NCBI GenBank assembly: GCA_964467735.1
Contig: CAYXSR010000002.1
Coordinates: 51,885 to 115,884, forward strand
Direction: 5' to 3'
Length of the DNA: 64,000 nt
Source of the DNA: an uncultured Pseudomonadales bacterium
Lineage (GTDB): Bacteria; Patescibacteriota; Microgenomatia; UBA1400; CAYXSR01
The notes under the pieces: model-generated
What the model was told of the DNA's origin: nothing
Database searches by the model: none
What the model saw: the letters and a program-made list of their open reading frames with translations, nothing else
Shown: one piece after another, positions 14,999 to 29,935 of the stretch
How positions within the stretch are numbered: the first letter of the stretch is position 1
How the letters are laid out: the number at the start of each line of letters is the position of its first letter
Made by a program: the position numbers and the translations under genes

Positions 14999-16411
14999 AT
15001 GATAAAAAGTGTGGATTTTAAAAAATTAATTATTCTCTGGATTTTATTGCTATCTGTTTTGTATAGCCTGCTTTCTATTTTACGACATGATCATTTTCAG
15101 TCAGGAGGTTTTGATCTGGGTCTTTTTGATCAAACTGTTTGGCAGTATTCCCGCTTCCTTTATCCTTATAATACAATTAAAGATCGTTTTATTCTAGGCG
15201 ATCATTTTACGCCAATATTAACTCTTTTATCGCCTTTATATTGGCTTTGGAGCAACGTCCGACTGCTTTTAATATTTCAAGCATTTTGGATCAGTTTTTC
15301 CACATTTGCAATTTTCAAGATTGCTAAATTAAAAAAAATGTCCAGCTTTACAGCTTTTGCAGTTAGCTTTAGCTACAGTATTTTTTATGGCATCCAACAA
15401 GCAGTTTTTTTTGACTTTCATCCGGTAGTTATCGGTGTTGGCCTATTATCATGGCTTGCTTATTTTTGGCTAGCTGACAAAAAAAAGCTATTTTATGCCA
15501 CTTTAGTACTTTTATTCTTAACCCAAGAAAATATGGGGATCGGTCTTGCTTGCTTAAGCCTTATTTTTTTCTTCGAGAAAAACCAGCAAAAAAAAGCATT
15601 AACAATGTTTATCTCAGGAATTGCTATTAGTCTAATAGAAGCTAAAATTATTAGCCGTTTCTCTCCTGTAGGATTCCAATATCAACCTGAAATAAACCTC
15701 AACCTAATCAAAATAGCTACTGATTTATTTAACAGCGAGGAAAAAAGACAAGTCTGGCTTTATTCCTTAAGCTGGTTTTCCTTTTTACCTTTACTTTCAC
15801 CTGGTTCCTTAATGGCAGTAATTGCTGATTTAGCACAATATTTTGTTACCGGCCCAGAATTTCAAAGAATGTGGAGCCCATTTATGCACCACCGTATCAC
15901 TCTATCGCTTTTTTTAATTTTAGGAGTAATCCAAGTTTTAAATTACCGTTTTTTTAAAAAATGGCGGTTTTGGCTATCATTGATAATCTTATCAACTAGC
16001 ATCTTTTGCCAGTACTACTTCCATTTTCCCTTAAATAAATTAAGCAAAAGTATTTATTGGAAAAAAGAATTTTGGATGGATGATAATAAAGAAATGTTTA
16101 GTCAAATTTCCTCTGATGTTAGTATTGCCACTCAACAGAATTTAGTACCTCATTTGTCCCAAAGAAAAGAAATCTACCTAATCTGGCCAAGGATGCATAA
16201 GGTTGATAATTTTTGTGAGAACTGCTGGTGGTTAGATTTTGCAGGAAAACCAGAATATTTGCTTGTTGACTTAAGACCCAACCAATGGTTAACCCAACTT
16301 CTTGAAAGTAATGAAAATTTTAAACAGGCAGTTAATAATATGAAAAAAGCAGGAAAAATTGAGTTCAATAGAAAAATTAATAATATTTATCTTTATAACA
16401 TTAACTATTAA
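14999..16411 (+). CDS. Polytopic membrane protein, DUF2079-like (putative GT-C-type glycosyltransferase)
   Basis: 470 aa with many TM helices. N-terminal region SILRHDHFQSGGFDLGLFDQTVWQYSRF...GDHFTPILTLLSP resembles the DUF2079 family signature as I recall it. Confidence 0.45.
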   Translation: MIKSVDFKKLIILWILLLSVLYSLLSILRHDHFQSGGFDLGLFDQTVWQYSRFLYPYNTIKDRFILGDHFTPILTLLSPLYWLWSNVRLLLIFQAFWISFSTFAIFKIAKLKKMSSFTAFAVSFSYSIFYGIQQAVFFDFHPVVIGVGLLSWLAYFWLADKKKLFYATLVLLFLTQENMGIGLACLSLIFFFEKNQQKKALTMFISGIAISLIEAKIISRFSPVGFQYQPEINLNLIKIATDLFNSEEKRQVWLYSLSWFSFLPLLSPGSLMAVIADLAQYFVTGPEFQRMWSPFMHHRITLSLFLILGVIQVLNYRFFKKWRFWLSLIILSTSIFCQYYFHFPLNKLSKSIYWKKEFWMDDNKEMFSQISSDVSIATQQNLVPHLSQRKEIYLIWPRMHKVDNFCENCWWLDFAGKPEYLLVDLRPNQWLTQLLESNENFKQAVNNMKKAGKIEFNRKINNIYLYNINY

Positions 16412-17641
16412 ATGAAAAAGAAAGTTCTATTTCAGGTTTTGTTCTTTTTATTTGTACTAATTATATATCTTTTTATAGCGGGAAAGGCCAATTGGCAGTT
16501 TAAAAAAAGTAATTTTCCCTATTTTAATTATCTAGCTGATTCTCTTTTGCAACAAAAATGGGATTTGGTCAATCCTCCTGCAAGCCGTTATGATTTAAGT
16601 CAATATCAAGGTAGGGTCTACCTTTATTGGGGTCCCTTACCGGCAATAACAATAATACCTTTAATTTTTATCTTCGGAAAAAACACAAGTGATTTTATTT
16701 ATACTGCTTGTTTTGGTTCCTTAAATGCCCTGCTTTTAACTTTTGTCTTATCAAAACTAAACCAGCTTCTTAAAAACAAACTAAGTTTTGTAAATATTTT
16801 CCTGTTAACTGTTTTTTTTGCCTTTGGGACTGTAAACTTTGCTGTTTCTGTTGTCGGTAGAGTCTGGTTTACTTCTCAGGTTATTTCTTTGACTGTTTTT
16901 CTAATCTCTTTGTACTTTTTGCTTGATTATTTATTTTCAAAAAAGAACATCAAGTTTATTTTGGCAACTTGTTTTCTTATGACTGCTGGTTTTGGCCGAC
17001 TGACCTATTTACTTTATCTACCTATGTTTGTCTTGTCTTTATTTTTTACAAAACCATTTAATAAAAAGAAAGTAATTACCAACAGCTTTTTCCTGATATT
17101 TTTTATTATATCTTTTTTTGCATTATATGGTTTTTACAATTATAAAAGGTTCCAAAATCCATTTGAAACTGGTTATAATTTTCAAGCAGAAAGAAATGAT
17201 TTTACGAAATTAAGGAAAAATTATGGCAGATATAATATTATTTATTTAGTTCAAAATATTAAGTATCAGCTAATAAATCCTCTTCTGTTTGAAAACAAGT
17301 TTCCTTTTATTAAACCAAACTTAAAAGGAAACGGTATTTTTATCACCTCTCCTCTGTTTTTACTTTTGGTTTTTTATATAAAAAAAGTGCTGAAAAACAA
17401 ATATAATATTTTGTTAATAAGCGGCGTCTTACCAATCTTTACTCAACTTATGCTTTTTTATGGCACCGGAGAATCACAGTTTGGCGCCCGTTATTTATTA
17501 GATTTAATTCCCTTGTTAATCTTAATATTAGCTACTTTTATAGAAACAGTCTCTAAAAAAGTCTTTTTACCTTTATTTGCGGTTTCCGTTATTATTTCGA
17601 CTTTAGGTGCAGTCTGGTTTTCAATATATAAACAGTGGTAA
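16412..17641 (+). CDS. Polytopic membrane protein, GT-C-like (ArnT/PMT-related)
   Basis: 409 aa, about 11 TM helices. The first loop DLSQYQGRVYLYWGPLPAI resembles the D..Y...Y.yW.PLp loop of ArnT-like enzymes. The start ATG is immediately after the stop of the upstream gene. Confidence 0.4.
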   Translation: MKKKVLFQVLFFLFVLIIYLFIAGKANWQFKKSNFPYFNYLADSLLQQKWDLVNPPASRYDLSQYQGRVYLYWGPLPAITIIPLIFIFGKNTSDFIYTACFGSLNALLLTFVLSKLNQLLKNKLSFVNIFLLTVFFAFGTVNFAVSVVGRVWFTSQVISLTVFLISLYFLLDYLFSKKNIKFILATCFLMTAGFGRLTYLLYLPMFVLSLFFTKPFNKKKVITNSFFLIFFIISFFALYGFYNYKRFQNPFETGYNFQAERNDFTKLRKNYGRYNIIYLVQNIKYQLINPLLFENKFPFIKPNLKGNGIFITSPLFLLLVFYIKKVLKNKYNILLISGVLPIFTQLMLFYGTGESQFGARYLLDLIPLLILILATFIETVSKKVFLPLFAVSVIISTLGAVWFSIYKQW

Positions 17642-19649
17642 TAAAAACGGTAAGCATTGATATTAAAAATAAAATATTTATTATTTTCTGAAGCTTATAT
17701 TCAATAACAATCTCATTATTTCCAATTTGCTCTATAAAAAAGGAGTTTAGCTTATTTCTTTCTTTTGACCTAATTATTTTATCGTTAATCTTTGCTTCCC
17801 AGTTTTCGTCAAAACTTTCAGAAAATACCAAATCAACAGGCTCTTTATTGTTAATCTTAACAATATATTTGGTACTGTTTACCATTTGAAAGCTTAGATT
17901 AGAGTTCGAATCAGTCCAAAATAGTCCTCTAGGTGGATTCTCCAAAGAAAAAACTTTTAATTTCTCAAAACCTTCTATTGGCTTATAAAAACCAGTTTGC
18001 GTAATAAAATTAATTAGCTTTTGTCTTGCTTGCTCATCATATTGTCTTTCTTTAACGAATATCTCTCCTTCTGTATCAAATGGAACAATCAAATATTTAA
18101 CATTCAATTCCTGAAAAATCTTTAAAACCTCCTTATTTGCTAAATAAGAAAAATCGGCCGGGTAACAGTGCTCATTCTCTGGACATTGAAAGTATTCCTT
18201 GTCTAAATTGCTTATTTTTAAACTGCAAAATGGATCCTCACAATAATCGTCAATTGTCCAAAAGTCAGCAGACATTACGGGGTGTTCATCGTCGTAATAG
18301 GTAAATCGCTGGGTTGAAGGTAACCAAAAGGTACGAAAACTAGCATCTTTAGAAATAATAAAATCCTTAAATTTTACATAATCATTCGACACTGAAGAAA
18401 GAATCAGGGATTTTTTTATATTTCCTTTTATTGCCGGCATTAGAATAATAATAAAAATTGAAATAAAAACAACGCCAGCATTAAGAACATTTTTCTTCCC
18501 CATCCTTCTGTCTAAGTTGTAAATTGTCCAAGGAATAAGCATGGAATAACCCAAACAAATCAAACTATAAAACTTTGTTGGATCACGAAACATATTCATG
18601 CCGGGAATATACTTAAATAAAAATAAGTAAATTTTTCCAAAGGGTTCATTTATTCCTTTTGAAAAAAAAATACCAACAATCGCTAGACAAGCAAAAAAGA
18701 GTACCATTTTTTTTACTTGTCTTTGTTTATTAATAAATAGAAGTGAACTAAAAATAAGCAATGGAAAAACTATAAATAAGGGATTAATCATGCTTATTTT
18801 ACCGAAGATATTTTCATACCAGTTAGGGTGGAATAGAGACAATGATGAACTAAGATCAGCAAAAGAAAAAAACTTTAGCGCTTCTTTGCTTGTATATACT
18901 TGATTACTAATATCAACACCCGTGGAACCACTAATTAATATTGGAACAATCCAAAAAGAATGAATAAAAAAGGCAATCATAAAAACAAAAGCAAATATTT
19001 TCAAAAACTTTATAACTGTTTTTTTTGACTGTCTTATGTTAACAAAAATATTGAATAGAAAAAAAGAAAATATTATAAACAACAGCAAGTAAGCAAAGCG
19101 CAGATCAAAAATAATCATTAAAGAAAAAGCAAGGGAAAAAAATATTATATAATCTACTTTTGATTTTTCATACGCTAATAAGAATAATAAAAAAGCAAAA
19201 GGCAAAAAAGAATAAGCCAAAAAAACACTTGTCTGACCACCAGAAACTATCATCAAAAAATAACTATTTAATCCATAAATCAAAGAGCTAAAGAATGCAT
19301 AATTGTTATTTTTAAATATTTTTTTATAAAGATAAAAAGGGCCAATAAAGGAAAAAATAAGTGCTGGGAAAAACCAGATTATTCTCTCAACAATAGCAAA
19401 GCTTAAAAACTTACCCAGAAATCCCATTGGAATTAAATAATAATAAGGAGCCAAAAAGAAAAAAGTTCTTCCCCCCAATCCACCGTTTCTAAAGGTTTCC
19501 CAAGCAGGCGGAAACCTGAAATAATTAACTAAATTTTCCTTAAAAAAATAGTTTAAATCTCCACTTACAATTGGAATATTTATCTTCAGTAGCCAATGTC
19601 TAAAGATAAATATAAAAAGAAAAGCTACTATTATTTTTAAATATCTCAT
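17592..19649 (-). CDS. Large GT-C-like membrane protein, paralog A of a three-member family (YfhO/AftD-like architecture)
   Basis: 685 aa: N-terminal block of about 11 TM helices, an extracytoplasmic domain, and one C-terminal TM helix (INILFLISMLTVFITTVYIL). It shares with 20019..23492 and 23497..26415 the motif KG.NxPFG..Y.FL....P.....FR (FFSKGINEPFGKIYLFLFKYIPGMNMFRD) and a C-terminal EY..Q+ anchor motif. Confidence 0.5.
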   Translation of the reverse strand: MRYLKIIVAFLFIFIFRHWLLKINIPIVSGDLNYFFKENLVNYFRFPPAWETFRNGGLGGRTFFFLAPYYYLIPMGFLGKFLSFAIVERIIWFFPALIFSFIGPFYLYKKIFKNNNYAFFSSLIYGLNSYFLMIVSGGQTSVFLAYSFLPFAFLLFLLAYEKSKVDYIIFFSLAFSLMIIFDLRFAYLLLFIIFSFFLFNIFVNIRQSKKTVIKFLKIFAFVFMIAFFIHSFWIVPILISGSTGVDISNQVYTSKEALKFFSFADLSSSLSLFHPNWYENIFGKISMINPLFIVFPLLIFSSLLFINKQRQVKKMVLFFACLAIVGIFFSKGINEPFGKIYLFLFKYIPGMNMFRDPTKFYSLICLGYSMLIPWTIYNLDRRMGKKNVLNAGVVFISIFIIILMPAIKGNIKKSLILSSVSNDYVKFKDFIISKDASFRTFWLPSTQRFTYYDDEHPVMSADFWTIDDYCEDPFCSLKISNLDKEYFQCPENEHCYPADFSYLANKEVLKIFQELNVKYLIVPFDTEGEIFVKERQYDEQARQKLINFITQTGFYKPIEGFEKLKVFSLENPPRGLFWTDSNSNLSFQMVNSTKYIVKINNKEPVDLVFSESFDENWEAKINDKIIRSKERNKLNSFFIEQIGNNEIVIEYKLQKIINILFLISMLTVFITTVYILKTRLHLKSK

Positions 19650-20026
19650 TTATGAAATCGAAGTTTACTTTTAACAAAAATCAACAATTCATTGATTATC
19701 CATTTGCAAAGACCAAGACTTATAAAAATAAACTCCCAAACTGCAAAAGCTTCGGCCAACCTTTCTCTTTTGGTTATTAAAACAAAAGGAACAGGAATTA
19801 GGAAAAAAATTGCGATTAAGAAAAACCATCTTTCTTCGAAAGATAAAACATAAAAAATTAAAAGCCAATATAAAAAAACAAAAGCAGTAAAAGAACTATT
19901 CAATCCTCTAAAAATAAAAACACCTGCCAAAGATAAAAGGAAACCAGCCAATATGGCTGCTATTCTTATTTTGTTGTTTTTTCTTAAACCTTTAAGAACT
20001 GTATTAATCTTCTTTATTTTATTCAT
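19646..20026 (-). CDS. Small membrane protein (3-4 TM helices), unknown function
   Basis: 126 aa and hydrophobic. It sits between the paralogous giant membrane proteins and overlaps both neighbours by a few nt. Confidence 0.4.
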   Translation of the reverse strand: MNKIKKINTVLKGLRKNNKIRIAAILAGFLLSLAGVFIFRGLNSSFTAFVFLYWLLIFYVLSFEERWFFLIAIFFLIPVPFVLITKRERLAEAFAVWEFIFISLGLCKWIINELLIFVKSKLRFHK

Positions 20027-23000
20027 TTATTCTCCTTTCTCTTTTCCTTAGATCTTTTAATGTTTGTACGCTAGCTAACATTGTAACAGAAATTATTGAT
20101 ACCAGAGAAATAGCAAAACCAATGTTTAATAATCTTTGCGGTTCATATTCAACTACGAGAGTATATTCTTTCTGATTATCAACACACTCAGGTTTAATCA
20201 ACCATTGGTTAGCATAACTGTTGGCCTCAAAATGCATTTCTTCAGGAACAGCTTGTTTTTGACTAATATTAAATAACTCTTTAAATAAAGAAATATTTGT
20301 CTTCTTATATATCTTCCAGTATTTATTATATTTTTGTGAAAAAACCAGCATGTAGGGATTTTGAGCATTTTTTATTTCAACTTCATACTTAGTAGGATTA
20401 ATTTTCTTAAAATGTATTAAGGGTTTATCTTGGTAATCTGTTTCTGATTGTTTGCTTTTTACCATTAATGAAGGAATGTTCATTTTTAGCAAGCGAGCTT
20501 CTATTATTTTAATTTTTCCTTGAAGATGTCTTAAAACTATACTTCCTTTTAAGCTATTTCCATTAGTTTTAAAAAGTAAGGAAAACCTGCCTCCTTTAGA
20601 AACTCTTTCGCTTCTTATTGTCTGTTCTTTTGTCTGCCATTGTCCCTGACTATAATAGTCTATATTTTCTTTTACATAAACTTCAAAAGCAGAATTATCT
20701 TCCATTTCATAATCAAATTCTAAAAGATAAACTTCGGCAGGCGACCAATTACTAATATTTTGAAAGTAAGAATCTGATTCTATCAGCAAAGGATTATTTT
20801 CTTTGGTTTGCAATTCTTCCTCGTCTACCTCATTTCTTTCCATTTCCAAGCTACCGTCAATCAGGATTCGCCAATTGTTGTTATTAATAAGGTTGTTATA
20901 ATTAATACTTATCTCTGGTTTAATGCTTGTTTCTTCTTCAAGATCGATAGTGCCGAGGTCAATTAGACTTTTCTGTTGTAAGGATTCAGAAGCAATCTCT
21001 TTCTCTAATCCATCAATAGAGACTCTTAAATTTTCTATTCCTGAAAAATCCTTTTCCGGCTTTATAAATAGTTCATATTCTCCATTTTCTGGAACTTCTA
21101 GACTATATTCAAGTTTATCTGGATCTACAAGTTTCATCCTCTCCGCAGCTCTTGTGGTTAAATCCTCAAAAATCTTAGACCAATGGATAATTTTGTCATT
21201 ACTCCAACCCTCTTTATTAGCAAGCTCATTAAAGGTATTTTTGTGATAATTCACATAATTAATTGTAAGCTGTAAACCTTCATGCTTATTGTCTAACAAC
21301 TCTGATTGATTAATGACTTCCTCTATTATCTTTTCAAAATCCTTTAAGTTTTTCTGCCACCAGGTATTACTTGTTCCCCACTTTACAATCTCCGCTATCC
21401 TTTTGGCAGCATAAAAATGAATTAAGTCAAATTTTTCTCGAGAGGTTAAATTCTTTTTTAAGGAGCGCTGTTCTTTTGCTCTTATCAAAGGATAAATAAA
21501 CGAATTAGGCTTAATTCTAACGTAGGGATAGGAAACAACACCTTTTACCTCCATATCTAAATCTCTTCTAATAAAATTATTTTTAAGATTGGTTGTAAAG
21601 TTTTTTGGACGGGAAAAAATAAATTTCTGATCAGATATTTTGTTAATAAACTCATCTTTGGCTTTAAGATCACTTTTTGCTTTTATCTGTGGATGAACTA
21701 AGTAAAAAGAGTATTTTTTGTCATCACTAACAAAATCGTTAAAGTTTAATATGTCTGTTGGATTCTCACTGTCAATCTGTATTATTTCGTCTGCAATATA
21801 AAGAGTTGGTAAAAAACAGTTATTATCTATCTCTCTTAGAGTAAAATAATTATTCTCTTGGATAATATTTCCAGAGAAATCCAAATTCTTAACAACTGGC
21901 CCATGAAGACTATCTTTTTCTTGTAATAAATAACCAATGTTAAAAATTTTAGTAAACAGGCAAGCCTTGGTAACAGGTAAGAAATTAATTTGGTTATCTC
22001 CAATAACATCATTCGCATAATTAATCGGTTTATTAACCAACCATTTAATTATTGGTTGTCCGGAATAACCCCATGACTTATTAACATAGCCGTCGCCTAA
22101 TGGAAGACTTAATATTTTCCCTTTGTCATCCTCAAACTTATTTATTGCCTGAGATATTTTAAAATATTCTTCTGGTACTCTATAACCTTTTTCTTCTAGA
22201 CTGCCACCTTGCCAGTTTTCAAGCTTTCTTCCTTGATAAACCGGAGCAAAAACTAAAAAATGGATTAAGCAAAATATTATTAATAAAACTGTTTTTGTTT
22301 TTAAAAAACTCTTAATTGTTAAACCCAGTAAAAAGGTATAAAAAATAACCCCTCCAATAATTAAACTTGAAGTAGTTCTAAAAATTTTGAAGAAAGGTAA
22401 ATGAAATAACAAAAACTTATAAACTTCGCCAAAAGGAGGATTGGAACCTTTTGCCAAAAAAATAAAAAACAATAAGAAAGTTAAAAGAAGATATATTTTT
22501 ATTTTCTTAGATCTTTTTTTAACTAAAAAGGCGTTAAGGATAATTAAGAACCAAAGAAAAAAAGTCCAAATAATGAAAAACGGCGAAGATAAAAATTTAC
22601 CTAAAGAAGTATTCTTATTTATAAGATTTGAATTAAAAAACCGTGAAGTAAAAGGAAGAGAAGCGGAGAATATGTCAGCATTTCCATCATAAACCACCAC
22701 TTCTTTTGAGTAATAGTTGTAAATTCCACCAGGCCCAAAAACGTCTCTAATAAAAGGAATTACTACATAAGCATTAAGTATTATTGTAAGAAGGCCTAAG
22801 ACAACAAGTCTGAAAAAAACCTTTTTAAATTTCACCTGCCTTACCCTTATATAGTAAATTAAGGTAAATATCAGACTGAAGAAAAAAACTATAGAAAATT
22901 TTACTTGCGGAAAGTCAGTAATAAAAGAAATATTAAAAAAATATGAAAAAAGTAAAGCATATATAATTTTTTTCTTATCTATAAATTGAAGAATTAAGAA

Positions 23001-23492
23001 AAGACATATTGGTATACCATATAATGGTACTGTTCCGACAATAACTAAAATCGCGGCTGGATTTAAGAAAAAAAGAATCGCCACCAATAAAGGCCAGTTA
23101 TTATTATTTTTCTTATTATTCGATGGGTGAAGAAGTTTAAATAAGCCAAAACTGGCGAAAAATCCAAGAAGATAAATTACTATAGTGAATATCTTTACCA
23201 TCAAATACGATGGAATTTGTAGCCAAGATAATAACAAGAAAGGCGCTTGCCAAGCTAAAAGTACATAACCAAAAAAACTAAAACCGTTGTTTCCTTCTTC
23301 CCATATAAAAATTGATTTTTTAATATTATTTTGCGGACTTAGAGGATAAATGAAATCACCACCGATATAATAATTCTTATCCCAAATTGAAAATATAAAA
23401 AATCCAAAAATAGAAAAAGTAATTAATAAATAAAAATATTTTAAGCAATTCTCCTTTATATTTTTAATTATTCTTATCACAAAATCATCCAT
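20019..23492 (-). CDS. Large GT-C-like membrane protein, paralog B (YfhO/AftD-like architecture)
   Basis: 1157 aa. N-terminal YYIGGDFIYPLSPQNN...FIWEEGNNGFSFFGYVLLAWQ, then about 12 TM helices with KGSNPPFGEVYKFLLFHLPFFKIFRTTS, a ~650-aa extracytoplasmic domain, and a C-terminal TM anchor (LLNIGFAISLVSIISVTMLA). It is clearly paralogous to 23497..26415 along its full length. Confidence 0.55.
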   Translation of the reverse strand: MDDFVIRIIKNIKENCLKYFYLLITFSIFGFFIFSIWDKNYYIGGDFIYPLSPQNNIKKSIFIWEEGNNGFSFFGYVLLAWQAPFLLLSWLQIPSYLMVKIFTIVIYLLGFFASFGLFKLLHPSNNKKNNNNWPLLVAILFFLNPAAILVIVGTVPLYGIPICLFLILQFIDKKKIIYALLFSYFFNISFITDFPQVKFSIVFFFSLIFTLIYYIRVRQVKFKKVFFRLVVLGLLTIILNAYVVIPFIRDVFGPGGIYNYYSKEVVVYDGNADIFSASLPFTSRFFNSNLINKNTSLGKFLSSPFFIIWTFFLWFLIILNAFLVKKRSKKIKIYLLLTFLLFFIFLAKGSNPPFGEVYKFLLFHLPFFKIFRTTSSLIIGGVIFYTFLLGLTIKSFLKTKTVLLIIFCLIHFLVFAPVYQGRKLENWQGGSLEEKGYRVPEEYFKISQAINKFEDDKGKILSLPLGDGYVNKSWGYSGQPIIKWLVNKPINYANDVIGDNQINFLPVTKACLFTKIFNIGYLLQEKDSLHGPVVKNLDFSGNIIQENNYFTLREIDNNCFLPTLYIADEIIQIDSENPTDILNFNDFVSDDKKYSFYLVHPQIKAKSDLKAKDEFINKISDQKFIFSRPKNFTTNLKNNFIRRDLDMEVKGVVSYPYVRIKPNSFIYPLIRAKEQRSLKKNLTSREKFDLIHFYAAKRIAEIVKWGTSNTWWQKNLKDFEKIIEEVINQSELLDNKHEGLQLTINYVNYHKNTFNELANKEGWSNDKIIHWSKIFEDLTTRAAERMKLVDPDKLEYSLEVPENGEYELFIKPEKDFSGIENLRVSIDGLEKEIASESLQQKSLIDLGTIDLEEETSIKPEISINYNNLINNNNWRILIDGSLEMERNEVDEEELQTKENNPLLIESDSYFQNISNWSPAEVYLLEFDYEMEDNSAFEVYVKENIDYYSQGQWQTKEQTIRSERVSKGGRFSLLFKTNGNSLKGSIVLRHLQGKIKIIEARLLKMNIPSLMVKSKQSETDYQDKPLIHFKKINPTKYEVEIKNAQNPYMLVFSQKYNKYWKIYKKTNISLFKELFNISQKQAVPEEMHFEANSYANQWLIKPECVDNQKEYTLVVEYEPQRLLNIGFAISLVSIISVTMLASVQTLKDLRKRERRINE

Positions 23493-23496
23493 TTGT

Positions 23497-26415
23497 TTAA
23501 TTCTTTCTATGTGTATTTTTAATTTTAATGACTTTAATAAAGCTAATAATTAGGATTATCAAAACACTAATAAATGATATTGTTATACCCACTATAAACA
23601 GTCTTTGTGGAACATATTCAATAATTAATTTACATTTTTTTCCGTCGCAATTTTTACTTTTCTCTATTATCCAACCATTAGCATAGCCATTAGCTAAAAA
23701 GTGCGAATTTTCTGGCACAGTTTTCTGGTTAAAATTTAATATATCACTTATCGACAAGAATTTATAATTTTGAACTTGCTGACTGACTTTCTTACTTGGA
23801 AATTCTATAGTTTCAAATTGCTTCTGATCAGGTAACTTTTTGTCAGTATAAAATACTTTCCATCGTGAATCAAAACCTTCTGAAAAAACCAAATAAACAG
23901 GAAAATTTAAAGATTCTATCTCAGCAAGATATTTGGTTGGGTTAATCTTTCTAAATATTAATTTGGCTTCATCATCATAATAGCTGTCTTTTTCTGTTTC
24001 TAAAAAGATTTCTGGGATTATTAATTCTTTTAAAGAAACTTTCTTAACAATGTTTTCTGACCCCAAATTATAAATATATATCTTGGCTTTAATAGCATCC
24101 TCATCAGCTTTAATAATTTTAGAATAATTTATTTTACCAGAACCACTAATCTTTTCATTTAGTATAGTAAAGTTTAAATTTTGTTTAATATATCTACCTT
24201 TATGAATAAGTTTTCTTTCATCTATTAGTACTCCTATATAATTATTAAGAGGAGCCTCTATCTCAAGAGAAAGTAGATAAGTTTTCCCTTTATTCCAACC
24301 TTCAAGAGATTGAAACATAACTGAATTACCGACATCAAGACAAGGAGGCTCAAGCTTTGTATAATCATCTCCTTTGCGATTATCAAACCAGTCTTTACTG
24401 ATTATTTCTGGTGAATTATTAATGGCTAATTCTATTTCCGACTCCCCTTCTGTAATCTTTTGCCCGTTTTCAATATCAAATTTAATATCATTTATTTTTA
24501 GACTGTTGATTTTGTCCAAGTCTTTACTTAAGATTTTATATTTGCCATCTTTGGGTATTTTTATTTTGTATTTTAATTCCTGAAATTCTTGTTTGTCCTC
24601 TGGAATAAATTCTGCTTTTGTCACTATTTTATTTGGTTCTATCTCGGCTAAATTATTATAAGTAAGGCTTAACTCTGGATTTCTAAGCAACCTTGATATT
24701 TCGGCAATATCGTTATCATTTCCTCCAAACAAAATCTTTTGTTTTGCCAAGTATAAATGAGGAACAAAACATTCATCGTCCACTTTATTTACCACCAAAT
24801 TTTCTCCTGAGTAAATTGGTTTAGCCGGTAATTTCAAGTCATTAAAATCAAACACATCTAAAGAGTCTTTTTCCTCGATAATATAACTAATATTTTGAAC
24901 TCCTATTTCGGCGCAAATTTCCTGCTTAGAAAAATTCCTCCATTGACTATTTTTTATTTGTTGATCAACAGAACCAAAGGCGCTTCCTATAACTGGTTTA
25001 TCAATCACCCAAGGCATTAATGTACTGCCACTAAAATTCCAATCCTTGTAACTATAACTATCATTGAAAGGTAATGTTAAGATTTTTCCATCAATTTTTT
25101 CTTTTCTTAAAATATCAGCTGTTGCAAAATAGTCTTGTGGAATATCTATTCTTTTTCTAACATTTTTATTATTTAAATATTCAAAGTTTGAATAATCTAA
25201 AAACACAAACCTAAATACAAAAATATGAATGATTAAAAAAAAGTAAAACAGTTTTTTTGACTTACTATAGATAAACTTAAAAACCAACCCCAATAAGATA
25301 CTAAAAAAGAAGCTACATCCTATTAAAATAATCGGGGTGGTTCTAAAAAACCCAAATAGAACGAAATTTAATAACAAAAACTTATAAACTTCGCCAAAAG
25401 GAGGATTTGGTCCCTTGGCCCAAAAAATAAAAAATATTAAAAAAAAAGTTAAAAAATAAAGAAGTTTTTTTTCCTTCTTTTCTTTGGTTTTGTAAATAAC
25501 CCAAAAAATCAATCCCCATAAAAAATAACACCAAAAAAGAAAAACTGGACTCTGTAGGGTTTTGCCCAAAATCGTCACATCGTTAACAAAATTAGAATTA
25601 TAGAAATTGAATACATAAGAAAGGCTGGCAGAGTGAATATCCGCATTTCCACCATAAAGATTTAAAATCTTTCTTTTATTAACATTATTATTACTTAAAA
25701 TAACGTCGTTAATAAATGGCATCAACAAATAAGCATTAAGAAGAATGGTTATTACCAACACTTTAATTAAAGGAAATATTAGTTCCTTGAAATTTATTTT
25801 TCTTAAGTAAGAATAAAGTAAAACAATAAAAAGAAGAGAAAAGCTATAAATTACTAGATACTTTGCCTGAGGTAAATCAGAAAAAGATCCAAAATTAATA
25901 AAGAAAGCGAGAGGAAGAGTATATAAAAAATTTTTTGTATCTAGATACTTAATTAAGAAAAAAATACAGGAAGGAAGAAAATATAGTTGATAAGCTCCTT
26001 TAAGCACGAGAATACTAATAGGGTTTAGAAAAAAGAATAGTCCGCAAATTACAGCTATTTTATTCTCCAAATATTTTTTTTCTTTAAAAAGTTCCCAATA
26101 GGAAAGATAAGTGAAAATGACGCCGATAGATAAAGTCAATATTATAAAAATCTTAATCCCAAAAGCTGGTGAAAATGACAGTCTACTCAAAACATAAAAA
26201 AAAGATTGCCAATTCAAATACATATACTTAAAAAAGCTTTTGCCACTCTCCACCTCTTCCCATAAATAAAGTGACTTATTAATATTTGCTTCTGGGTTTA
26301 GGGGAAAAATCCCATCTCCACTATAGTAATAACCACCCCTTAATATTAAATAAAAATAAATCAGAAATGGAAAAAAAATTAGTAAACCCCAGATTATTTT
26401 ATTTCTTTTATACAT
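23497..26415 (-). CDS. Large GT-C-like membrane protein, paralog C (YfhO/AftD-like architecture)
   Basis: 972 aa. YYYSGDGIFPLNPEAN...YLWEEVESGKSFFKYMYLNWQ; KGPNPPFGEVYKFLLLNFVLFGFFRTTP; C-terminal IEYVPQRLFIVGITISFISVLIILII. It has the same domain order as paralog B. Confidence 0.55.
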   Translation of the reverse strand: MYKRNKIIWGLLIFFPFLIYFYLILRGGYYYSGDGIFPLNPEANINKSLYLWEEVESGKSFFKYMYLNWQSFFYVLSRLSFSPAFGIKIFIILTLSIGVIFTYLSYWELFKEKKYLENKIAVICGLFFFLNPISILVLKGAYQLYFLPSCIFFLIKYLDTKNFLYTLPLAFFINFGSFSDLPQAKYLVIYSFSLLFIVLLYSYLRKINFKELIFPLIKVLVITILLNAYLLMPFINDVILSNNNVNKRKILNLYGGNADIHSASLSYVFNFYNSNFVNDVTILGKTLQSPVFLFWCYFLWGLIFWVIYKTKEKKEKKLLYFLTFFLIFFIFWAKGPNPPFGEVYKFLLLNFVLFGFFRTTPIILIGCSFFFSILLGLVFKFIYSKSKKLFYFFLIIHIFVFRFVFLDYSNFEYLNNKNVRKRIDIPQDYFATADILRKEKIDGKILTLPFNDSYSYKDWNFSGSTLMPWVIDKPVIGSAFGSVDQQIKNSQWRNFSKQEICAEIGVQNISYIIEEKDSLDVFDFNDLKLPAKPIYSGENLVVNKVDDECFVPHLYLAKQKILFGGNDNDIAEISRLLRNPELSLTYNNLAEIEPNKIVTKAEFIPEDKQEFQELKYKIKIPKDGKYKILSKDLDKINSLKINDIKFDIENGQKITEGESEIELAINNSPEIISKDWFDNRKGDDYTKLEPPCLDVGNSVMFQSLEGWNKGKTYLLSLEIEAPLNNYIGVLIDERKLIHKGRYIKQNLNFTILNEKISGSGKINYSKIIKADEDAIKAKIYIYNLGSENIVKKVSLKELIIPEIFLETEKDSYYDDEAKLIFRKINPTKYLAEIESLNFPVYLVFSEGFDSRWKVFYTDKKLPDQKQFETIEFPSKKVSQQVQNYKFLSISDILNFNQKTVPENSHFLANGYANGWIIEKSKNCDGKKCKLIIEYVPQRLFIVGITISFISVLIILIISFIKVIKIKNTHRKN

Positions 26416-27056
26416 AATAATGCTTTGCTAGTTTCCGGTTTGTATAAGCAGTAAGAATAGTTTAATATTTCAGAAACAGCCCCCCAAAAAAACTTAGGTC
26501 TTAAAACAATACTATATTTGTTGTCCCTGAGGAATTTAGGTCCATACAAACCATATACTTGGTAACCTTTATTCCTAAAATCTTTAGTAGTCCATCCGGA
26601 CAAGTGAGTTTCTAGATCTTCGCCGTCTCCAATTTGCGATAGAAATCCATTGGTTGTAAAAATAATAACTTTTTTCTTTGCTAATCTTTCTGCATCTTTA
26701 ACTAACTTAACCCCATCATCCTTTCCCAAATGTTCAATGAGATCAAGACAAATCACCGCATCAAATGACTTTTCTTTAAACTTTTTCCCAATATTCCTGG
26801 CATTCATATACAGAAATTTATTATGCGTCTTATTCTTTTTTGCTTTCTGTAAATTTTTTTTGTATAGATCAATTCCAAATAAATCCTTTCCTTCCAAAAG
26901 AGATAAAGGAGAATTAGCTCCGCAGCCAACGTCTAAAATTGAATGACAATGTTTTAACATTCCATCTAGTCTGTATAAAAAATTGGAAAAAGCAATATTT
27001 GGAAAACAAATCTTAAAATATTTACAACGTAATTTAAACTTTTCTAAAAGGCTCAT
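26394..27056 (-). CDS. Class I SAM-dependent methyltransferase
   Basis: ILDVGCGANSPLSLLEGKDLFGIDLYKKNLQKAKK...FDAVICLDLIEHL (SAM-binding motif I and post-I). Confidence 0.7.
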   Translation of the reverse strand: MSLLEKFKLRCKYFKICFPNIAFSNFLYRLDGMLKHCHSILDVGCGANSPLSLLEGKDLFGIDLYKKNLQKAKKNKTHNKFLYMNARNIGKKFKEKSFDAVICLDLIEHLGKDDGVKLVKDAERLAKKKVIIFTTNGFLSQIGDGEDLETHLSGWTTKDFRNKGYQVYGLYGPKFLRDNKYSIVLRPKFFWGAVSEILNYSYCLYKPETSKALLCIKEIK

Positions 27057-27758: not shown

Positions 27759-28910
27759 TCAATTAATATTTTTTCCCAATTTGGGAAACATTTCTTTTAT
27801 TTCTTTACGGGCAATCTTGTCCCAATCAAAATTTTTTAAAGTATTATTATATTTTAACGGCTTTTTTAAAAATCTTATAATAAAACAAACTATTTTTTCT
27901 TTTCCTTTTTTCTTAAATGTTTTTAATTGTCCTGTTTTAATAAATTCTCCAAAAACATCGTAGTAAATCGGCAACTCATAAGCGACTACCTGTTTATTGG
28001 CCGCTAAAGCTTCGATTACCACTTGCGGACAATGTTCATCATAACTTAGGAACAAAAAAAGTTTACACTTTGAGTAAATACTTCCTTTCTCCACTCCTTC
28101 TTTATAGCCTAAAATTTTAATATTATTTTTCAAATTATTTTTTTTTATTTGTCGAAATAATTTTCTTTTAATCTCTATGTCTCCATCCCCCATTATACCC
28201 AAGGAAATATTATTAATTCTTCTCTTCAAAAGACCAACTACATCTACCAAGTCAAAAATACCCTTTGCTGGATGAAGTCGTCCAGCAAAAAGTAAATCAC
28301 AACTTGGTGATTTTCTTATAATTGATTTGAAAATACTCGTATCGATTCCATAACGATCTCCAGTTTTAATTACTTTAATTCCTTTTCGCTTATAATACTC
28401 TTTTAAAGTGTCGGACACTAAAAAAATCGCACTGGTTTTTCTTAATAAGATATTACCTAGTCTAAATCCTAAAAAAGATAAAGTTTTTAAAATTAAATTT
28501 CCCGGATTTTTAAAGGGATTTGATACTAGATTATCAATTACCACGTAAATTTTAAGATTTTTGTTAAATAACTTACCAATCCAAGGCAGTATTAGAAAAT
28601 CAATTGTTCCCGACATACAATAAACTTTTTCAAATTTACTTAAGTTTCTAAACCATACTGGCCATGCTTTAAAGTGTAAAAGAATTGTTGACCAAACAAC
28701 ATCACGTTGAAATTTAATTTTATGTTTAAAAGGAACCACAATAAAATCAATATTTTTTAATTTCTCTGAGTAATATTTCTTTCCTTCCAAATTGGTAAAA
28801 AAAGTAAGTTTTAATTTTTTCCAAAATCTTATTTTGGCAATAAAAGGTTCCCGGTTAACCCCTTTTGTGTAATTAATGTCAAATATTAGTAATTTATTTT
28901 TTACTGTCAT
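27759..28910 (-). CDS. Glycosyltransferase, GT-B (GT4-like), paralog of 29935..31116
   Basis: LLFAGRLHPAKGIFDLVDVVGLLKRR...LGIMGDGDIEIKRKLFRQIKKNNLKNNIKILGY parallels LLYCGRIHLAKGILDLVEVAKLVCDRR...IGILGEGEKDVKKQFYQKIKDYGLENNFIHFGY in the other copy. Confidence 0.6.
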   Translation of the reverse strand: MTVKNKLLIFDINYTKGVNREPFIAKIRFWKKLKLTFFTNLEGKKYYSEKLKNIDFIVVPFKHKIKFQRDVVWSTILLHFKAWPVWFRNLSKFEKVYCMSGTIDFLILPWIGKLFNKNLKIYVVIDNLVSNPFKNPGNLILKTLSFLGFRLGNILLRKTSAIFLVSDTLKEYYKRKGIKVIKTGDRYGIDTSIFKSIIRKSPSCDLLFAGRLHPAKGIFDLVDVVGLLKRRINNISLGIMGDGDIEIKRKLFRQIKKNNLKNNIKILGYKEGVEKGSIYSKCKLFLFLSYDEHCPQVVIEALAANKQVVAYELPIYYDVFGEFIKTGQLKTFKKKGKEKIVCFIIRFLKKPLKYNNTLKNFDWDKIARKEIKEMFPKLGKNIN

Positions 28911-29935
28911 TCAAATGTTGGTATTTTGATTTTTAGAAAAGCATTTAGTTTTCCGCTGCCAAAATATAATTTCTTAAAAATCTCCCAATCATTTACTTTT
29001 CTTCGACTCTGAACCCAAGATCTCTTTTTTAAAGTTGATCTAAAACACAATATATTCCACCACCAAGCAGCTAAATATTGATAAGAAACTTTCCGCCTAT
29101 TAAATATAAAAAAAATAATAATTTCTACTAAGTTAATCAGCAAGTAAATAGGCAAAAGCCATACAAGAGTAAACAAAGAGTAGTTTTTTATAAAATTCCT
29201 TATTGTATTACGCTCTCCCAAATAACGCCTTAGGTAAGTAGTGGCATATTTTGGACCTTTGATGATTCCTCCTTTTAAAGATCCTCCGCTAAAATGATAA
29301 ATAACAGCCTGGGGTACATTAAGTAAAGGAATTTTAAAAAGATGCGCTTTCCATGATAAATCTACATCATCGGCAAACATAAAAAGAGCTTCATCAAATC
29401 TTCCAATTTTATTAAAAGTTTTGTGCGGAATAAAGATGGCTGCCCCATCGCAATAAAACATTCTTTTTGTTGCGAGTGAATTATCATCGTTGTAAAGCTT
29501 AAAAGGAAATTGAAAAATATCAGTACAAATACCATCAAATAAATACTCTCCTCTTTCGTAACGTTTTTGTCTTCCTACCAAAATAAAATTTTTTCTTCTT
29601 GTTTGTTTTGCTGTTTTTAAAAAGTCTTTTAAACAATTATTATCCAAATAAGTATCTGGTCCTAAAAAAAATAAATACTCGCCCTCTGCGATTTTTGATC
29701 CCAAATTGTTTCCGCCAGCATACCCAATATTAAAGTCTGATTCGATTAATTTTATTTTTAGCTTTTTTTTAAAAGATTTAATAATTTCTTTTGTTATAGT
29801 AAGGCTTTTTTTATTGGACTTGGAATCAATCAGAATAATTTCTAGCTTTTTTACTTTTTGACAAATTATTGACTGTAGATATCTTTTCAAAAATCTATCC
29901 GAGTTGTAGCAAACAGTAATTATGGAAACTTTCAT
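28907..29935 (-). CDS. Glycosyltransferase family 2 (GT-A)
   Basis: MKVSIITVCYNSDRFLKRYLQSI...IILIDSKSNKKS...GYAGGNNLGSKIAEGEYLFFLGPD, with a C-terminal TM segment. Confidence 0.75.
   Translation of the reverse strand: MKVSIITVCYNSDRFLKRYLQSIICQKVKKLEIILIDSKSNKKSLTITKEIIKSFKKKLKIKLIESDFNIGYAGGNNLGSKIAEGEYLFFLGPDTYLDNNCLKDFLKTAKQTRRKNFILVGRQKRYERGEYLFDGICTDIFQFPFKLYNDDNSLATKRMFYCDGAAIFIPHKTFNKIGRFDEALFMFADDVDLSWKAHLFKIPLLNVPQAVIYHFSGGSLKGGIIKGPKYATTYLRRYLGERNTIRNFIKNYSLFTLVWLLPIYLLINLVEIIIFFIFNRRKVSYQYLAAWWWNILCFRSTLKKRSWVQSRRKVNDWEIFKKLYFGSGKLNAFLKIKIPTFE

What the first reader, a model, noticed from the sequence alone, without database searches (positions are those of the whole stretch)
17592..26415. 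Tandem triplet of paralogous giant GT-C-like proteins (685, 1157, 972 aa) with YfhO/AftD-like architecture
All three proteins share the same build: an N-terminal bundle of about 11-13 TM helices, a large extracytoplasmic domain and a single C-terminal TM anchor. All three carry the KG.NPPFGEVYKFL...FR motif and a conserved EY.PQRL motif just before the anchor. Paralogs B and C also share the N-terminal YY..GD.I.PL.P..NI.KS...WEE motif. This architecture matches lipoteichoic/wall-teichoic-acid glycosylating YfhO-type enzymes and mycobacterial AftD-type arabinofuranosyltransferases. The extracytoplasmic domains of B and C differ in length (about 650 versus 480 residues) and sequence, which suggests divergent acceptor or carbohydrate-binding specificity. 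An 8.8-kb tandem expansion of such enzymes is notable.
Basis: partly seen in the sequence, partly recalled or inferred. Interest (0 to 1): 0.7.

Follow-up and report, generated by a model that had tools for sequence, protein, structure and literature searches.

The report
AftD-like membrane glycosyltransferase gene module
Three neighbouring genes in a Patescibacteria (candidate phyla radiation) surface-sugar gene cluster encode large membrane proteins built like the mycobacterial cell-wall enzyme AftD. They most likely attach sugars to a surface polymer outside the cell, and they are divergent, unannotated members of a known enzyme class rather than a new kind of system.

Summary

This is not a local expansion. 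The order C, B, a missed 126-aa orphan membrane protein, then A is syntenic in other Patescibacteria, and B and C diverged long ago. The superfamily is large (20,567 cluster representatives). A resembles MmpA (Rv0226c) as much as AftD.

Differences from AftD:
- no TM13–16 (ACP-binding) module
- a helical insert in B
- B and C lack the equivalents of AftD K361 and D474

The YfhO/teichoic-acid part does not. Verdict: new variant of a known kind, moderate interest.

The parts
23497..26415 (-). Gene C (972 aa): C-type AftD-like GT-C protein. Membrane domain is residues 1-409 (nt 25189-26415), outside ectodomain 410-934 (nt 23614-25188), and C-terminal TM anchor 935-968 (nt 23512-23613). EL1 Asp D34 is at nt 26314-26316. 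The KGPNPPFGEVYKFL...FR loop is at nt 25342-25416.
   Evidence: ORF. Paralogy to B. Hydropathy. Motifs and coordinates. C-type orthologs on the same contigs as B-type orthologs.
20019..23492 (-). Gene B (1157 aa): B-type giant AftD-like GT-C protein. Membrane domain (11 TM) is residues 1-419 (nt 22236-23492). Invariant EL1 Asp D46 is at nt 23355-23357. The outer loop KGSNPPFGEVYKFL...FR (348-372) is at nt 22377-22451. The ectodomain is residues 420-1120 (nt 20133-22235), and the TM12 anchor 1121-1145 is at nt 20058-20132.
21138..21494 (-). B-specific helical-bundle insert (residues 667-785, five helices) within the ectodomain. C lacks it. It is conserved in distant B-type giants.
   Evidence: DSSP of the model. 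Gap in the B/C alignment: B 572-792 against C 562-612. Weak DUF5667 hit, E=0.0057. The region also aligns in the L025 giant.
20145..20420 (-). Last beta-sandwich of B (residues 1025-1116), just before the anchor. It carries INPTKY...LVFS..W...H..N.YAN.W...EY.PQ and is the ectodomain module shared by A, B and C.
   Evidence: C-terminal alignments A/B and A/C. Invariant or nearly invariant K1035, Y1036, W1059, H1087, N1095, W1097 and Q1119. Strands in the models.
19646..20026 (-). Small conserved membrane protein (126 aa, about 4 hydrophobic segments, K-rich ends). It overlaps B by 8 nt and A by 4 nt.
   Evidence: ORF. Orthologs lie between B-type and A-type genes in L001, L002 (uncalled there) and L003. 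The family has 48 members of 101-126 aa, with no Pfam domain, on the same contigs as B/C-type proteins. No Pfam hit at E<=10. Probable remote homologs lie upstream of the giants in L025 and L026.
17592..19649 (-). Gene A (685 aa): A-type, an MmpA/AftD-like GT-C protein. Membrane domain is residues 1-407 (nt 18429-19649). EL1 Asp D31 is at nt 19557-19559. The outer loop KGINEPFGKIYLFL...FRDPTK (331-359) is at nt 18573-18659. The ectodomain 408-654 (nt 17688-18428) is an alpha/beta module plus one beta-sandwich. The TM12 anchor 655-677 is at nt 17619-17687.
   Evidence: Model with pLDDT 88.6 and pTM 0.90. Foldseek hits AftD at E=2.5e-5, then OST catalytic subunits. All 44 family members hit NCBIfam MmpA weakly. 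The family has more than 193 members in Patescibacteria. R355 and K359 align to AftD R357 and K361. Coordinates.
28907..29935 (-). Conserved neighbouring GT2 (342 aa, GT-A fold) with one C-terminal hydrophobic segment. It is a candidate cytoplasmic partner, possibly a lipid-linked sugar synthase, but its role is not established.
   Evidence: Pfam Glycos_transf_2. TM segment at 260-278. 58-63% identical to the GT2 beside the module in L003 and L001. There is no GtrB/ArnC equivalog hit, and the best NCBIfam hit is a rhamnosyltransferase subfamily at 7e-15.

Best explanation
A, B and C are divergent members of the AftD/MmpA branch of the GT-C membrane glycosyltransferase superfamily. They sit in a large surface-glycan biosynthesis locus of a Patescibacteria (Microgenomates-type) bacterium.

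**Build (shown).** Each protein has 11 N-terminal TM helices forming the GT-C core. Next comes an extracytoplasmic alpha/beta module plus beta-sandwich module(s). One C-terminal TM helix then returns the chain to the cytoplasm.

**Mechanism (inferred from the GT-C class).**
- A lipid-linked (polyprenyl-phosphate) sugar made in the cytoplasm and flipped outward binds at the outer face of the TM core.
- The conserved Asp in outer loop 1 (A D31, B D46, C D34) and the conserved outer-loop KG.N.PFG..Y...FR element form the active site.
- The sugar is transferred to a growing or finished surface polysaccharide that the ectodomain beta-sandwiches hold.
- The different ectodomains (A about 250 aa, C about 525 aa, B about 700 aa with a helical bundle) would give three different acceptor or linkage specificities in one pathway.

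The genes form a translationally coupled operon together with a 126-aa orphan membrane protein. That protein may be an accessory subunit or a flippase, which is speculative. The module is old and syntenic, not a recent expansion.
For: **Fold**
- Foldseek gives AftD at E=5.9e-14 for B.
- A's model (pLDDT 88.6) hits AftD and then only OST catalytic subunits.

**Sequence**
- Family profiles hit AftD in the PDB at E=1.3e-4 and 3.5e-7, colinear over AftD residues 45-471.
- Relatives hit Pfam GT-C_AftD, with a best E of 6e-32.
- All 44 A-family members hit the MmpA model. MmpA is itself reported as homologous to the AftD N-terminus (PMC8698533).

**Topology**
- K+R density is 0.40 inside vs 0.07 outside for B, and 0.38 vs 0.09 for A. 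This places the ectodomain and all conserved motifs outside.

**Conservation**
- The EL1 Asp is invariant in two B/C-family alignments (A4, A5), at least 90% conserved in A1, and at least 90% conserved in the A family.
- A R355 and K359 are invariant and align to AftD R357 and the essential K361.

**Context**
- The locus holds Bac_transf, a Wzx-like flippase, NDP-sugar enzymes, many GT4/GT2 genes and other GT-C genes.
- Synteny holds in L001-L004, L025 and L026.
- The genes overlap by 4-8 nt.
- Beta-sandwich hits to CBM22 and GH101 modules, and one relative with a weak CBM_4_9 hit.
Against: - No enzymatic activity, donor or acceptor is shown.
- The three window proteins have no significant direct Pfam or NCBIfam hit above threshold.
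- The essential AftD residues map only partly:
  - The conserved Asp aligns to AftD D37, four residues from the essential D41.
  - B and C have Ser or Pro at the K361 position, and Gln at D474.
  - The E251 equivalent is uncertain.
- No clear polyprenyl-phosphate-sugar synthase (GtrB/ArnC/CsbB type) or GtrA flippase was found in the scanned part of the window.
- MmpA, the nearest characterised relative of A by NCBIfam, has no demonstrated catalytic activity.
- CBM function is inferred from fold alone.
Confidence: 0.7

Rival explanations
1. YfhO-type enzymes: GT-C transferases that glycosylate lipoteichoic or wall teichoic acid using C55-P-GlcNAc made by a CsbB-type GT-A and flipped by a GtrA-type protein.
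For: - The general class and build are the same: a GT-C core plus an extracellular domain.
- 4 of 44 A-family relatives touch Pfam YfhO (best E=1.1e-6).
- A conserved membrane-anchored GT2 and a small multi-TM protein accompany the module, which echoes GT-A/flippase/GT-C systems (PMC8035078).
Against: - A, B and C do not hit PF09586.
- AftD and MmpA models are hit more often or more strongly.
- The small protein has no GtrA similarity.
- The GT2 is not a CsbB/GtrB equivalog.
- No teichoic-acid genes were seen among the scanned ORFs. The locus looks like a Wzx-dependent heteropolysaccharide cluster.
Confidence: 0.08
2. Non-catalytic MmpA-like role, mainly for A. On this reading A is a GT-C-fold membrane scaffold or lipid-handling factor. 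It would organise a complex, or assist export of a lipid-linked intermediate, rather than transfer sugar.
For: - All 44 A-family members match the MmpA model over TM9-EL5-TM11.
- A has the topology described for MmpA.
- MmpA is required for trehalose-lipid acetylation and transport, and no catalytic function has been assigned to it. It was proposed as a membrane anchor for a complex (PMC8698533).
- A always travels with a giant AftD-like gene.
Against: - The scores are far below the MmpA equivalog cutoff (28 vs 210 bits).
- The A family keeps a constellation of outer-face residues typical of an active site. D182, R184, K331, R355, D356 and K359 are invariant, and D31 is at least 90% conserved. 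K359 aligns to the catalytically essential AftD K361.
- MmpA itself might be an uncharacterised enzyme.
Confidence: 0.13
3. Oligosaccharyltransferase or ligase-type enzymes: en-bloc transfer of the flipped, diphosphate-lipid-linked glycan to a protein (S-layer protein or pilin) or to the wall, as in PglB/AglB/STT3.
For: - A's model matches STT3, AglB and PglB with TM-scores of 0.40-0.50 and probability 1.00.
- The locus has an initiating phosphoglycosyltransferase and a Wzx-like flippase, and so needs a final transfer step.
Against: - No WWDxG motif occurs in A, B or C, or in any of 101 aligned relatives.
- AftD is the better match, and the only one covering the soluble domain.
- Another candidate for polymerase or ligase exists in the locus: the 1025-aa protein with a weak Wzy_C hit at 8072-11149.
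Confidence: 0.07

Closest known systems
AftD (mycobacterial arabinofuranosyltransferase D; Pfam PF11847 GT-C_AftD; PDB 6W98/6WBX)
   Same: - The GT-C fold, with 11 N-terminal TM helices.
- A periplasmic alpha/beta module followed by beta-sandwich modules.
- Re-entry into the membrane through a single helix (TM12).
- It is the best structural match for both A and B.
- The profile alignment is colinear over about 500 residues.
- An acidic residue sits in outer loop 1, and the Arg of the L/F-R motif is conserved (AftD R357 = A R355 = B R372).
   Different: - There is no TM13-16 module, which binds acyl carrier protein in AftD. The proteins end 4-12 residues after TM12.
- Sequence identity is only about 10%, and the window proteins have no direct Pfam hit.
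- B carries a helical-bundle insert.
- A has a single beta-sandwich instead of three CBMs.
- B and C lack the equivalents of the essential K361 and D474.
- The host is Patescibacteria, which lacks arabinogalactan.
- No DPA-pathway genes were seen among the scanned ORFs.
MmpA (NCgl2761/Rv0226c; NCBIfam NF053599)
   Same: - For A: similar size class and topology (10-11 TM helices, one ectodomain near the C-terminus, then a terminal TM).
- All 44 A-family members match the model across TM9-EL5-TM11.
- MmpA is itself homologous to the AftD N-terminus and lies nine genes from aftD in M. tuberculosis. That parallels the adjacent A-type and B-type genes here.
   Different: - Scores are 28-50 bits against a 210-bit equivalog cutoff.
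- The context is different: no mycolate, TmaT or MmpL genes.
- MmpA is described as a trehalose-lipid delivery factor with no assigned catalysis.
- MmpA was reported to have no homologs outside the Corynebacterineae.
YfhO (PF09586), GT-C enzyme of LTA/WTA glycosylation
   Same: It is a GT-C membrane enzyme with an extracellular domain thought to bind the acceptor polymer. It works in multi-component GT-A/flippase/GT-C systems (PMC8035078).
   Different: - A, B and C have no Pfam match. Only 4 of 44 A-family relatives match, and weakly.
- There is no CsbB or GtrA equivalent.
- No solved YfhO structure appeared among the PDB matches.
Multi-component (three-component) transmembrane glycosylation systems (GtrABC, CsbB/GtcA/YfhO, GT136 pentofuranose systems)
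   Same: The gene content resembles a GT-A plus a small multi-TM protein plus GT-C enzyme(s) inside a polysaccharide locus. The expected logic is extracytoplasmic post-polymerisation glycosylation (PMC8035078, PMC11127046).
   Different: - The small protein is an orphan with no GtrA, MATE or Wzx similarity.
- The GT2 is not a recognised polyprenyl-phosphate-sugar synthase.
- Two or three GT-C paralogs are coupled in one operon, rather than one.

Membership tests
AftD / Pfam PF11847 GT-C_AftD | Significant sequence match to the PF11847 model | tested here: not met
   A, B and C give no PF11847 hit even at E<=1. Only relatives do: 6/44 in the B/C-family alignment (best 4.8e-8), 6/44 in the A family (best 1.3e-6), and 8/37 in the broad sample (best 6.1e-32).
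AftD / Pfam PF11847 GT-C_AftD | GT-C fold with 11 N-terminal TM helices plus a periplasmic alpha/beta GT-C module | tested here: met
AftD / Pfam PF11847 GT-C_AftD | Periplasmic beta-sandwich/CBM modules followed by a re-entrant single TM helix (TM12) | tested here: met
   B has beta-sandwich strands at 793-1116, then helix 1118-1156. A has strands at 584-651, then helix 653-684. Foldseek hits CBM22 and GH101 modules. Carbohydrate binding itself was not tested.
AftD / Pfam PF11847 GT-C_AftD | C-terminal TM13-16 bundle that binds acyl carrier protein | tested here: not met
   The proteins end 4-12 residues after the single C-terminal TM helix. The AftD architecture is taken from bioRxiv 10.1101/2019.12.22.885152.
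AftD / Pfam PF11847 GT-C_AftD | Essential residues K39, D41, E251, K361 and D474 | tested here: inconclusive
   From profile alignments to the rebuilt AftD 21-543 fragment:
- The conserved B D46 aligns to AftD D37. D41 falls on I48.
- K361 aligns to A K359 (invariant in the A family), but to B S376 and C Pro.
- E251 lies one residue from A D265 and 2-6 residues from B D269 and D273.
- D474 aligns to B Q479, and to a position that varies in the A family.

A structural superposition is needed to settle this.
AftD / Pfam PF11847 GT-C_AftD | Arabinofuranosyl transfer from decaprenyl-phospho-arabinose to arabinan | not testable with these tools
   This needs biochemistry. No UbiA-type or DprE-type genes appeared among the 46 of 54 window ORFs that were scanned.
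YfhO (PF09586) | Significant match to the YfhO model | tested here: not met
   There is no hit for A, B or C. 4 of 44 A-family relatives hit at best 1.1e-6, and none in the B/C-family samples do.
YfhO (PF09586) | Partner CsbB-type C55-P-sugar synthase and GtrA-type flippase | tested here: inconclusive
   A conserved GT2 with one TM segment lies nearby, but it is not a GtrB/CsbB/ArnC equivalog. The small 4-TM protein has no GtrA similarity.
MmpA (NF053599) | Score above the equivalog cutoff (210 bits) | tested here: not met
   A scores 28.1 bits, B 10.4 bits, and C has no hit. All 44 A-family members hit weakly, with a best E of 5.2e-14.
MmpA (NF053599) | Topology: about 10-11 TM helices, one extracytoplasmic domain near the C-terminus, then a terminal TM helix | tested here: met
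   A has 11 TM helices, an ectodomain at 408-654, and a terminal TM at 655-677. The MmpA topology is taken from PMC8698533.
Oligosaccharyltransferases (STT3/PglB/AglB) | WWDxG motif in the soluble domain | tested here: not met
   The motif is absent from A, B and C and from all 101 sequences in alignments A2, A4 and A5.
GT-C superfamily (general) | Conserved acidic residue in the first extracytoplasmic loop, facing outside | tested here: met
   B D46 (G-G-D) is invariant in A4 and A5 and at least 90% conserved in A1. A D31 is at least 90% conserved in A2. The loop is on the low-K+R (outer) side.
GT-C superfamily (general) | Use of a polyprenyl-phosphate-linked sugar donor | not testable with these tools
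   This is inferred from the fold class only.

The most novel reading that the evidence does not exclude
The conserved set of B-type AftD-like giant, A-type MmpA-like protein and orphan ~115-aa membrane protein (with a C-type paralog in some lineages) would be one dedicated extracytoplasmic glycan-assembly machine. It would be widespread in Patescibacteria. It would also be an evolutionary counterpart of the mycobacterial aftD-mmpA neighbourhood.

That would imply that MmpA-type proteins are partners of AftD-type GT-C enzymes, or are GT-C enzymes themselves, rather than lipid-delivery factors specific to the Corynebacterineae. It would also make the orphan small protein a new kind of subunit or lipid-sugar flippase.
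Probability: 0.2. Interest if true: 0.6.

Novelty: new variant of a known kind. Interest (0 to 1): 0.36.

Why it matters
Almost nothing is known experimentally about the cell-surface glycans of Patescibacteria (candidate phyla radiation). These are mostly uncultivated, host-dependent bacteria, for which the surface is likely central.

- **An unannotated branch of GT-C enzymes.** This locus shows that they carry a large, unannotated branch of the AftD/MmpA GT-C superfamily, with thousands of sequence clusters and no dedicated Pfam or NCBIfam model. The branch is organised as a conserved operon with an orphan small membrane protein.
- **A minimal AftD.** The proteins give a version of AftD without the ACP-binding module, which could be useful for mechanistic comparison.
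- **Remote MmpA homologs outside the Corynebacterineae.** They sit next to an AftD-like gene, which could help to assign a molecular function to the essential M. tuberculosis protein Rv0226c.
- **Practical use.** The family alignments could seed new family models, so that these 'hypothetical proteins' get annotated.

Tried and rejected
- **Direct hmmscan.** Pfam and NCBIfam scans of A, B and C gave no YfhO or AftD hit. The only results were weak MmpA and DUF5667 hits.
- **Single-sequence PDB searches.** Searches with B, A, P0051 and P0111 found nothing relevant, so these bridge sequences could not be used for residue mapping. The A-family profile alone did not reach AftD in the PDB either.
- **AFDB50 fold search.** The library was unavailable, so YfhO-type predicted structures could not compete with AftD.
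- **Genome scan with alignment A1.** I repeated it with the closer alignment A4.
- **Global hhalign to the AftD fragment.** The result was degenerate, so I used local mode.
- **Donor synthase.** A search for a GtrB/ArnC/CsbB-type synthase among seven GT2 genes gave no equivalog.
- **GtrA-like identity of the small protein.** I found none.
- **Source-record look-up.** The look-up through P0001 returned 'not on record', and cluster look-ups gave no names.
- **Literature.** Searches combining Patescibacteria/CPR/Microgenomates with GT-C, YfhO, arabinofuranosyltransferase or DUF3367 returned no papers.
- **Ideas rejected.** A recent tandem expansion is contradicted by synteny and the tree. OST identity is contradicted by the absence of WWDxG. 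The antisense 107-aa ORF at 20923-21246 inside B is treated as spurious.

Full report
**Observation.** The window has about 30% G+C and is densely packed with genes, mostly on the minus strand. It overlaps B by 8 nt and A by 4 nt. C and B are 4 nt apart, and a methyltransferase gene overlaps the start of C by 22 nt, so these genes form a translationally coupled operon.

B and C are unambiguous paralogs: 37% identity over 558 aa (E=2e-96), plus 27% over the C-terminal domain. A is much more distant: 25% over 281 aa to B (E=6e-9), plus a short C-terminal match to both B and C. At profile level its family is clearly homologous to the B/C family over the whole membrane domain (hhalign probability 100%, E=1.5e-63, 484 columns).

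The motifs are as described for B and C. A has only degenerate versions: KGINEPFGKIYLFL...FR and EYKLQKI.

**Direct family tests.** hmmscan of A, B and C finds neither YfhO (PF09586) nor GT-C_AftD (PF11847). The only hits are a weak MmpA hit for A (NF053599, 28 bits against a cutoff of 210) and a sub-threshold DUF5667 hit inside B. Single-sequence searches of the PDB find nothing.

**Relatives.** A word-indexed search with B found only 57 proteins, all from metagenomes or Patescibacteria. They fall into B-type (about 1120-1155 aa) and C-type (about 710-970 aa) proteins, which often share a contig. A has more than 193 relatives at 29-43% identity in Microgenomates-group Patescibacteria.

The exhaustive search with the B/C-family profile shows that the superfamily is large. 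It found 20,567 cluster representatives at E<=1e-3 and 7,463 at E<=1e-30. More than 150 full-length proteins of about 1,200 aa match at E<1e-146.

A scan of GTDB species representatives names Collierbacteria, Levybacteria, Shapirobacteria and unclassified Patescibacteria. Only motif-level echoes appear in Chloroflexia, Dormibacteraeota and Bathyarchaeia.

**Link to known families.**
- The B/C-family profile hits the solved AftD sequence (6W98/6WBX) at E=1.3e-4.
- A more diverse profile reaches E=3.5e-7 and is colinear over AftD 45-471.
- Individual relatives hit Pfam GT-C_AftD: 6/44, 6/44 and 8/37, with a best E of 6.1e-32.
- A few A-family members also touch YfhO (4/44, best 1.1e-6) and PTPS_related.
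- All 44 A-family members hit the MmpA model (best 5.2e-14) over TM9-EL5-TM11.
- MmpA (Rv0226c) is itself reported to be homologous to the N-terminal 668 residues of AftD and to lie nine genes from aftD (PMC8698533).

**Structure.** The AlphaFold2 models are confident: B has pLDDT 86.9 and pTM 0.82, and A has pLDDT 88.6 and pTM 0.90.

For A, AftD is again first (E=2.5e-5, TMq 0.51). Then come only OST catalytic subunits, and every hit below E=1e-3 is a GT-C enzyme.

B's ectodomain consists of:
- an alpha/beta module (about 423-660)
- a five-helix bundle (667-785), which C lacks
- beta-sandwiches (793-1116), which give fold-level hits to CBM22, GH101 and Cry-protoxin modules

A has the alpha/beta module and one beta-sandwich.

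**Topology.** I took helix boundaries from the models and treated the amphipathic helices of outer loop 1 as juxtamembrane. Both proteins then read as N-in, 11 TM helices, ectodomain out, TM12, C-terminus in. K+R density is 0.397 in the proposed cytoplasmic loops against 0.067 outside for B, and 0.377 against 0.093 for A. The ectodomain and all shared motifs therefore face outward. This is the same layout as AftD TM1-11, periplasmic domain and TM12.

**Active-site comparison.** I rebuilt AftD chain residues 21-543 from the printed alignments. A +3 offset reproduces the published K39, D41, E251, K361, D474 and E475 exactly. Local profile alignments are colinear over about 500 residues, but they are statistically weak against a single sequence (A5 E=8e-5; A2 and A4 about 0.06-0.08). 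The mapping is:

| AftD residue | A family | B/C family |
|---|---|---|
| D37 / K39 / D41 (EL1) | D31 lies in the same short segment after TM1; register unresolved | conserved D46 aligns to D37, four residues before the essential D41 |
| E251 | D265 of the 'FAD' motif, one residue away | D269 and D273, 2-6 residues away |
| R357 | R355 (invariant) | R372 |
| K361 | K359 (invariant) | S376 in B, Pro in C |
| D474 | variable in the family | Q479, within a well-anchored P...WG segment |

So an outer-face acidic residue and the F/L-R element are shared. The A family keeps the R...K pair, but B and C do not keep K361 or D474. This fits a functional outer-face site with chemistry that need not be that of AftD. 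A structural superposition, which is not possible with these tools, is needed to settle the equivalences.

**Genomic context and age.** The window is one large surface-glycan locus. It contains:
- an initiating phosphoglycosyltransferase (604-1224)
- a Wzx-like flippase (53271-54563)
- nucleotidyltransferases, dehydratases, aminotransferases, acetyltransferases and methyltransferases
- many GT4 and GT2 genes
- a 1025-aa multi-TM protein with a weak Wzy_C hit
- five PMT_2 GT-C genes, a DUF2079 gene and an LA_3751-like gene

The module is syntenic elsewhere:

| Locus | Gene order |
|---|---|
| L001 (788-kb contig) | C-type, B-type, small, A-type |
| L002 | C-type, B-type, small (uncalled), A-type |
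| L003 / L004 | GT2, B-type, small, A-type |
| L025 (more distant) | small, giant, A-type |
| L026 (more distant) | small, giant, methyltransferase, A-type |

An NJ tree of the shared domain puts B-type proteins in one clade and C-type proteins outside it, and pairs from the same contig split between the two. The tree has no bootstrap support. The duplication therefore predates these lineages, and this is not a recent expansion.

The small protein defines a 48-member orphan family with no Pfam domain, found on the same contigs as B/C-type genes. A 342-aa GT2 with one C-terminal TM segment is a conserved neighbour (58-63% identity), but it is not a recognisable polyprenyl-phosphate-sugar synthase.

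**Interpretation.** The fold, topology, conservation and context are shown. On that basis A, B and C are GT-C-fold membrane proteins of the AftD/MmpA branch with outward-facing ectodomains, encoded in a conserved operon within a glycan locus.

The mechanism is inferred. The proteins would use lipid-phosphate-linked sugars at the outer face to elongate or decorate the locus polysaccharide, and the ectodomain beta-sandwiches would hold the acceptor. The three different ectodomains would give three specificities. Confidence is about 0.7.

The rivals are:
- a YfhO/teichoic-acid role (0.08), because membership is not met
- a non-catalytic MmpA-like scaffold role, mainly for A (0.13)
- an OST or ligase-type en-bloc transferase (0.07), because no WWDxG motif occurs in 101 relatives

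**Novelty.** No paper in the searchable library links Patescibacteria or CPR bacteria with AftD, YfhO or GT-C enzymes. The MmpA paper states that MmpA has no homologs outside the Corynebacterineae. The proteins belong to a known enzyme class, so a specialist would not be very surprised. Even so, the branch has no annotation, lacks AftD's ACP-binding module, has its own inserts and a dedicated orphan partner, and pairs an AftD-like gene with an MmpA-like gene. I rate it a new variant of a known kind, with interest about 0.36.

Noticed in passing
window 19646-20026 (-): A 126-aa multi-TM protein is wedged between B and A. It overlaps B by 8 nt and A by 4 nt. It is the founding member of a 48-member orphan family with no Pfam domain, always on contigs that carry B/C-type genes. 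Probable remote homologs precede the giants in L025 and L026.
   Followed up: yes
window 8072-11149 (-): A 1025-aa protein with about 21 hydrophobic segments. Its only hit is weak: Wzy_C (O-antigen ligase/polymerase), E=0.0053, with no NCBIfam hit. ORFs of similar size (990-1054 aa) follow a GT2 in L002 and L003. It is a possible unusual polymerase or ligase for this glycan.
   Followed up: partly
window 6652-8079, 47632-49458, 56699-57847, 57844-59304, 61612-63237, 14999-16411, 16412-17641: The window holds five PMT_2-type GT-C genes (one fused to C-terminal TPR repeats), a DUF2079 gene and an LA_3751/3752-like gene. Counting A, B and C, that is about ten GT-C-like membrane proteins in 64 kb, which is an unusually high density.
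   Followed up: partly
window 49973-51451 (-); L001 15712-17133: A B12-binding radical SAM enzyme lies inside the glycan locus. In L001 a protein with the same domain pair sits immediately after the A-type gene. This suggests radical methylation or another modification of a sugar.
   Followed up: no
window 38714-40531 (-), 37554-38717 (-), 35258-36502 (-); L003 2-1755: A TPP-dependent enzyme (acetolactate-synthase-like, three TPP domains) sits next to two aminotransferases in the sugar-modification part of the locus. L003 has a split transketolase pair at the corresponding end. This hints at a branched-chain or otherwise unusual sugar.
   Followed up: no
window 17592-17641: The 3' ends of A (minus strand) and of the LA_3751-like ORF 16412-17641 (plus strand) overlap convergently by 50 nt.
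   Followed up: no
window 28907-29935 (-); L001 5266-6300; L003 6995-8038: A GT2 with a single C-terminal TM segment is 58-63% identical across loci, well above the 34-43% seen for A, B and C. In L003 it overlaps the start of the B-type gene. It is not a GtrB/ArnC equivalog.
   Followed up: partly
window 26394-27056 (-); L025 9060-10007; L026 6373-7017: A SAM-dependent methyltransferase gene directly abuts the module in several loci. It lies upstream of C here, after the A-type gene in L025, and between the giant and the A-type gene in L026. This recalls that MmpA function in corynebacteria depends on the putative methyltransferase MtrP, but the resemblance may be coincidental.
   Followed up: no
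window 27194-27742 (-): A 182-aa methyltransferase ORF has a C-terminal tail that departs from the domain. It is followed by a 137-nt gap before the next methyltransferase gene. It may be a truncated or frameshifted copy.
   Followed up: no
L006, L008, L011, L012: Several MAG records that carry close relatives of B/C are titled 'uncultured Pseudomonadales' or 'Gammaproteobacteria'. All other relatives are Patescibacteria, so these titles are probably taxonomic mislabels in the third-party assemblies.
   Followed up: no
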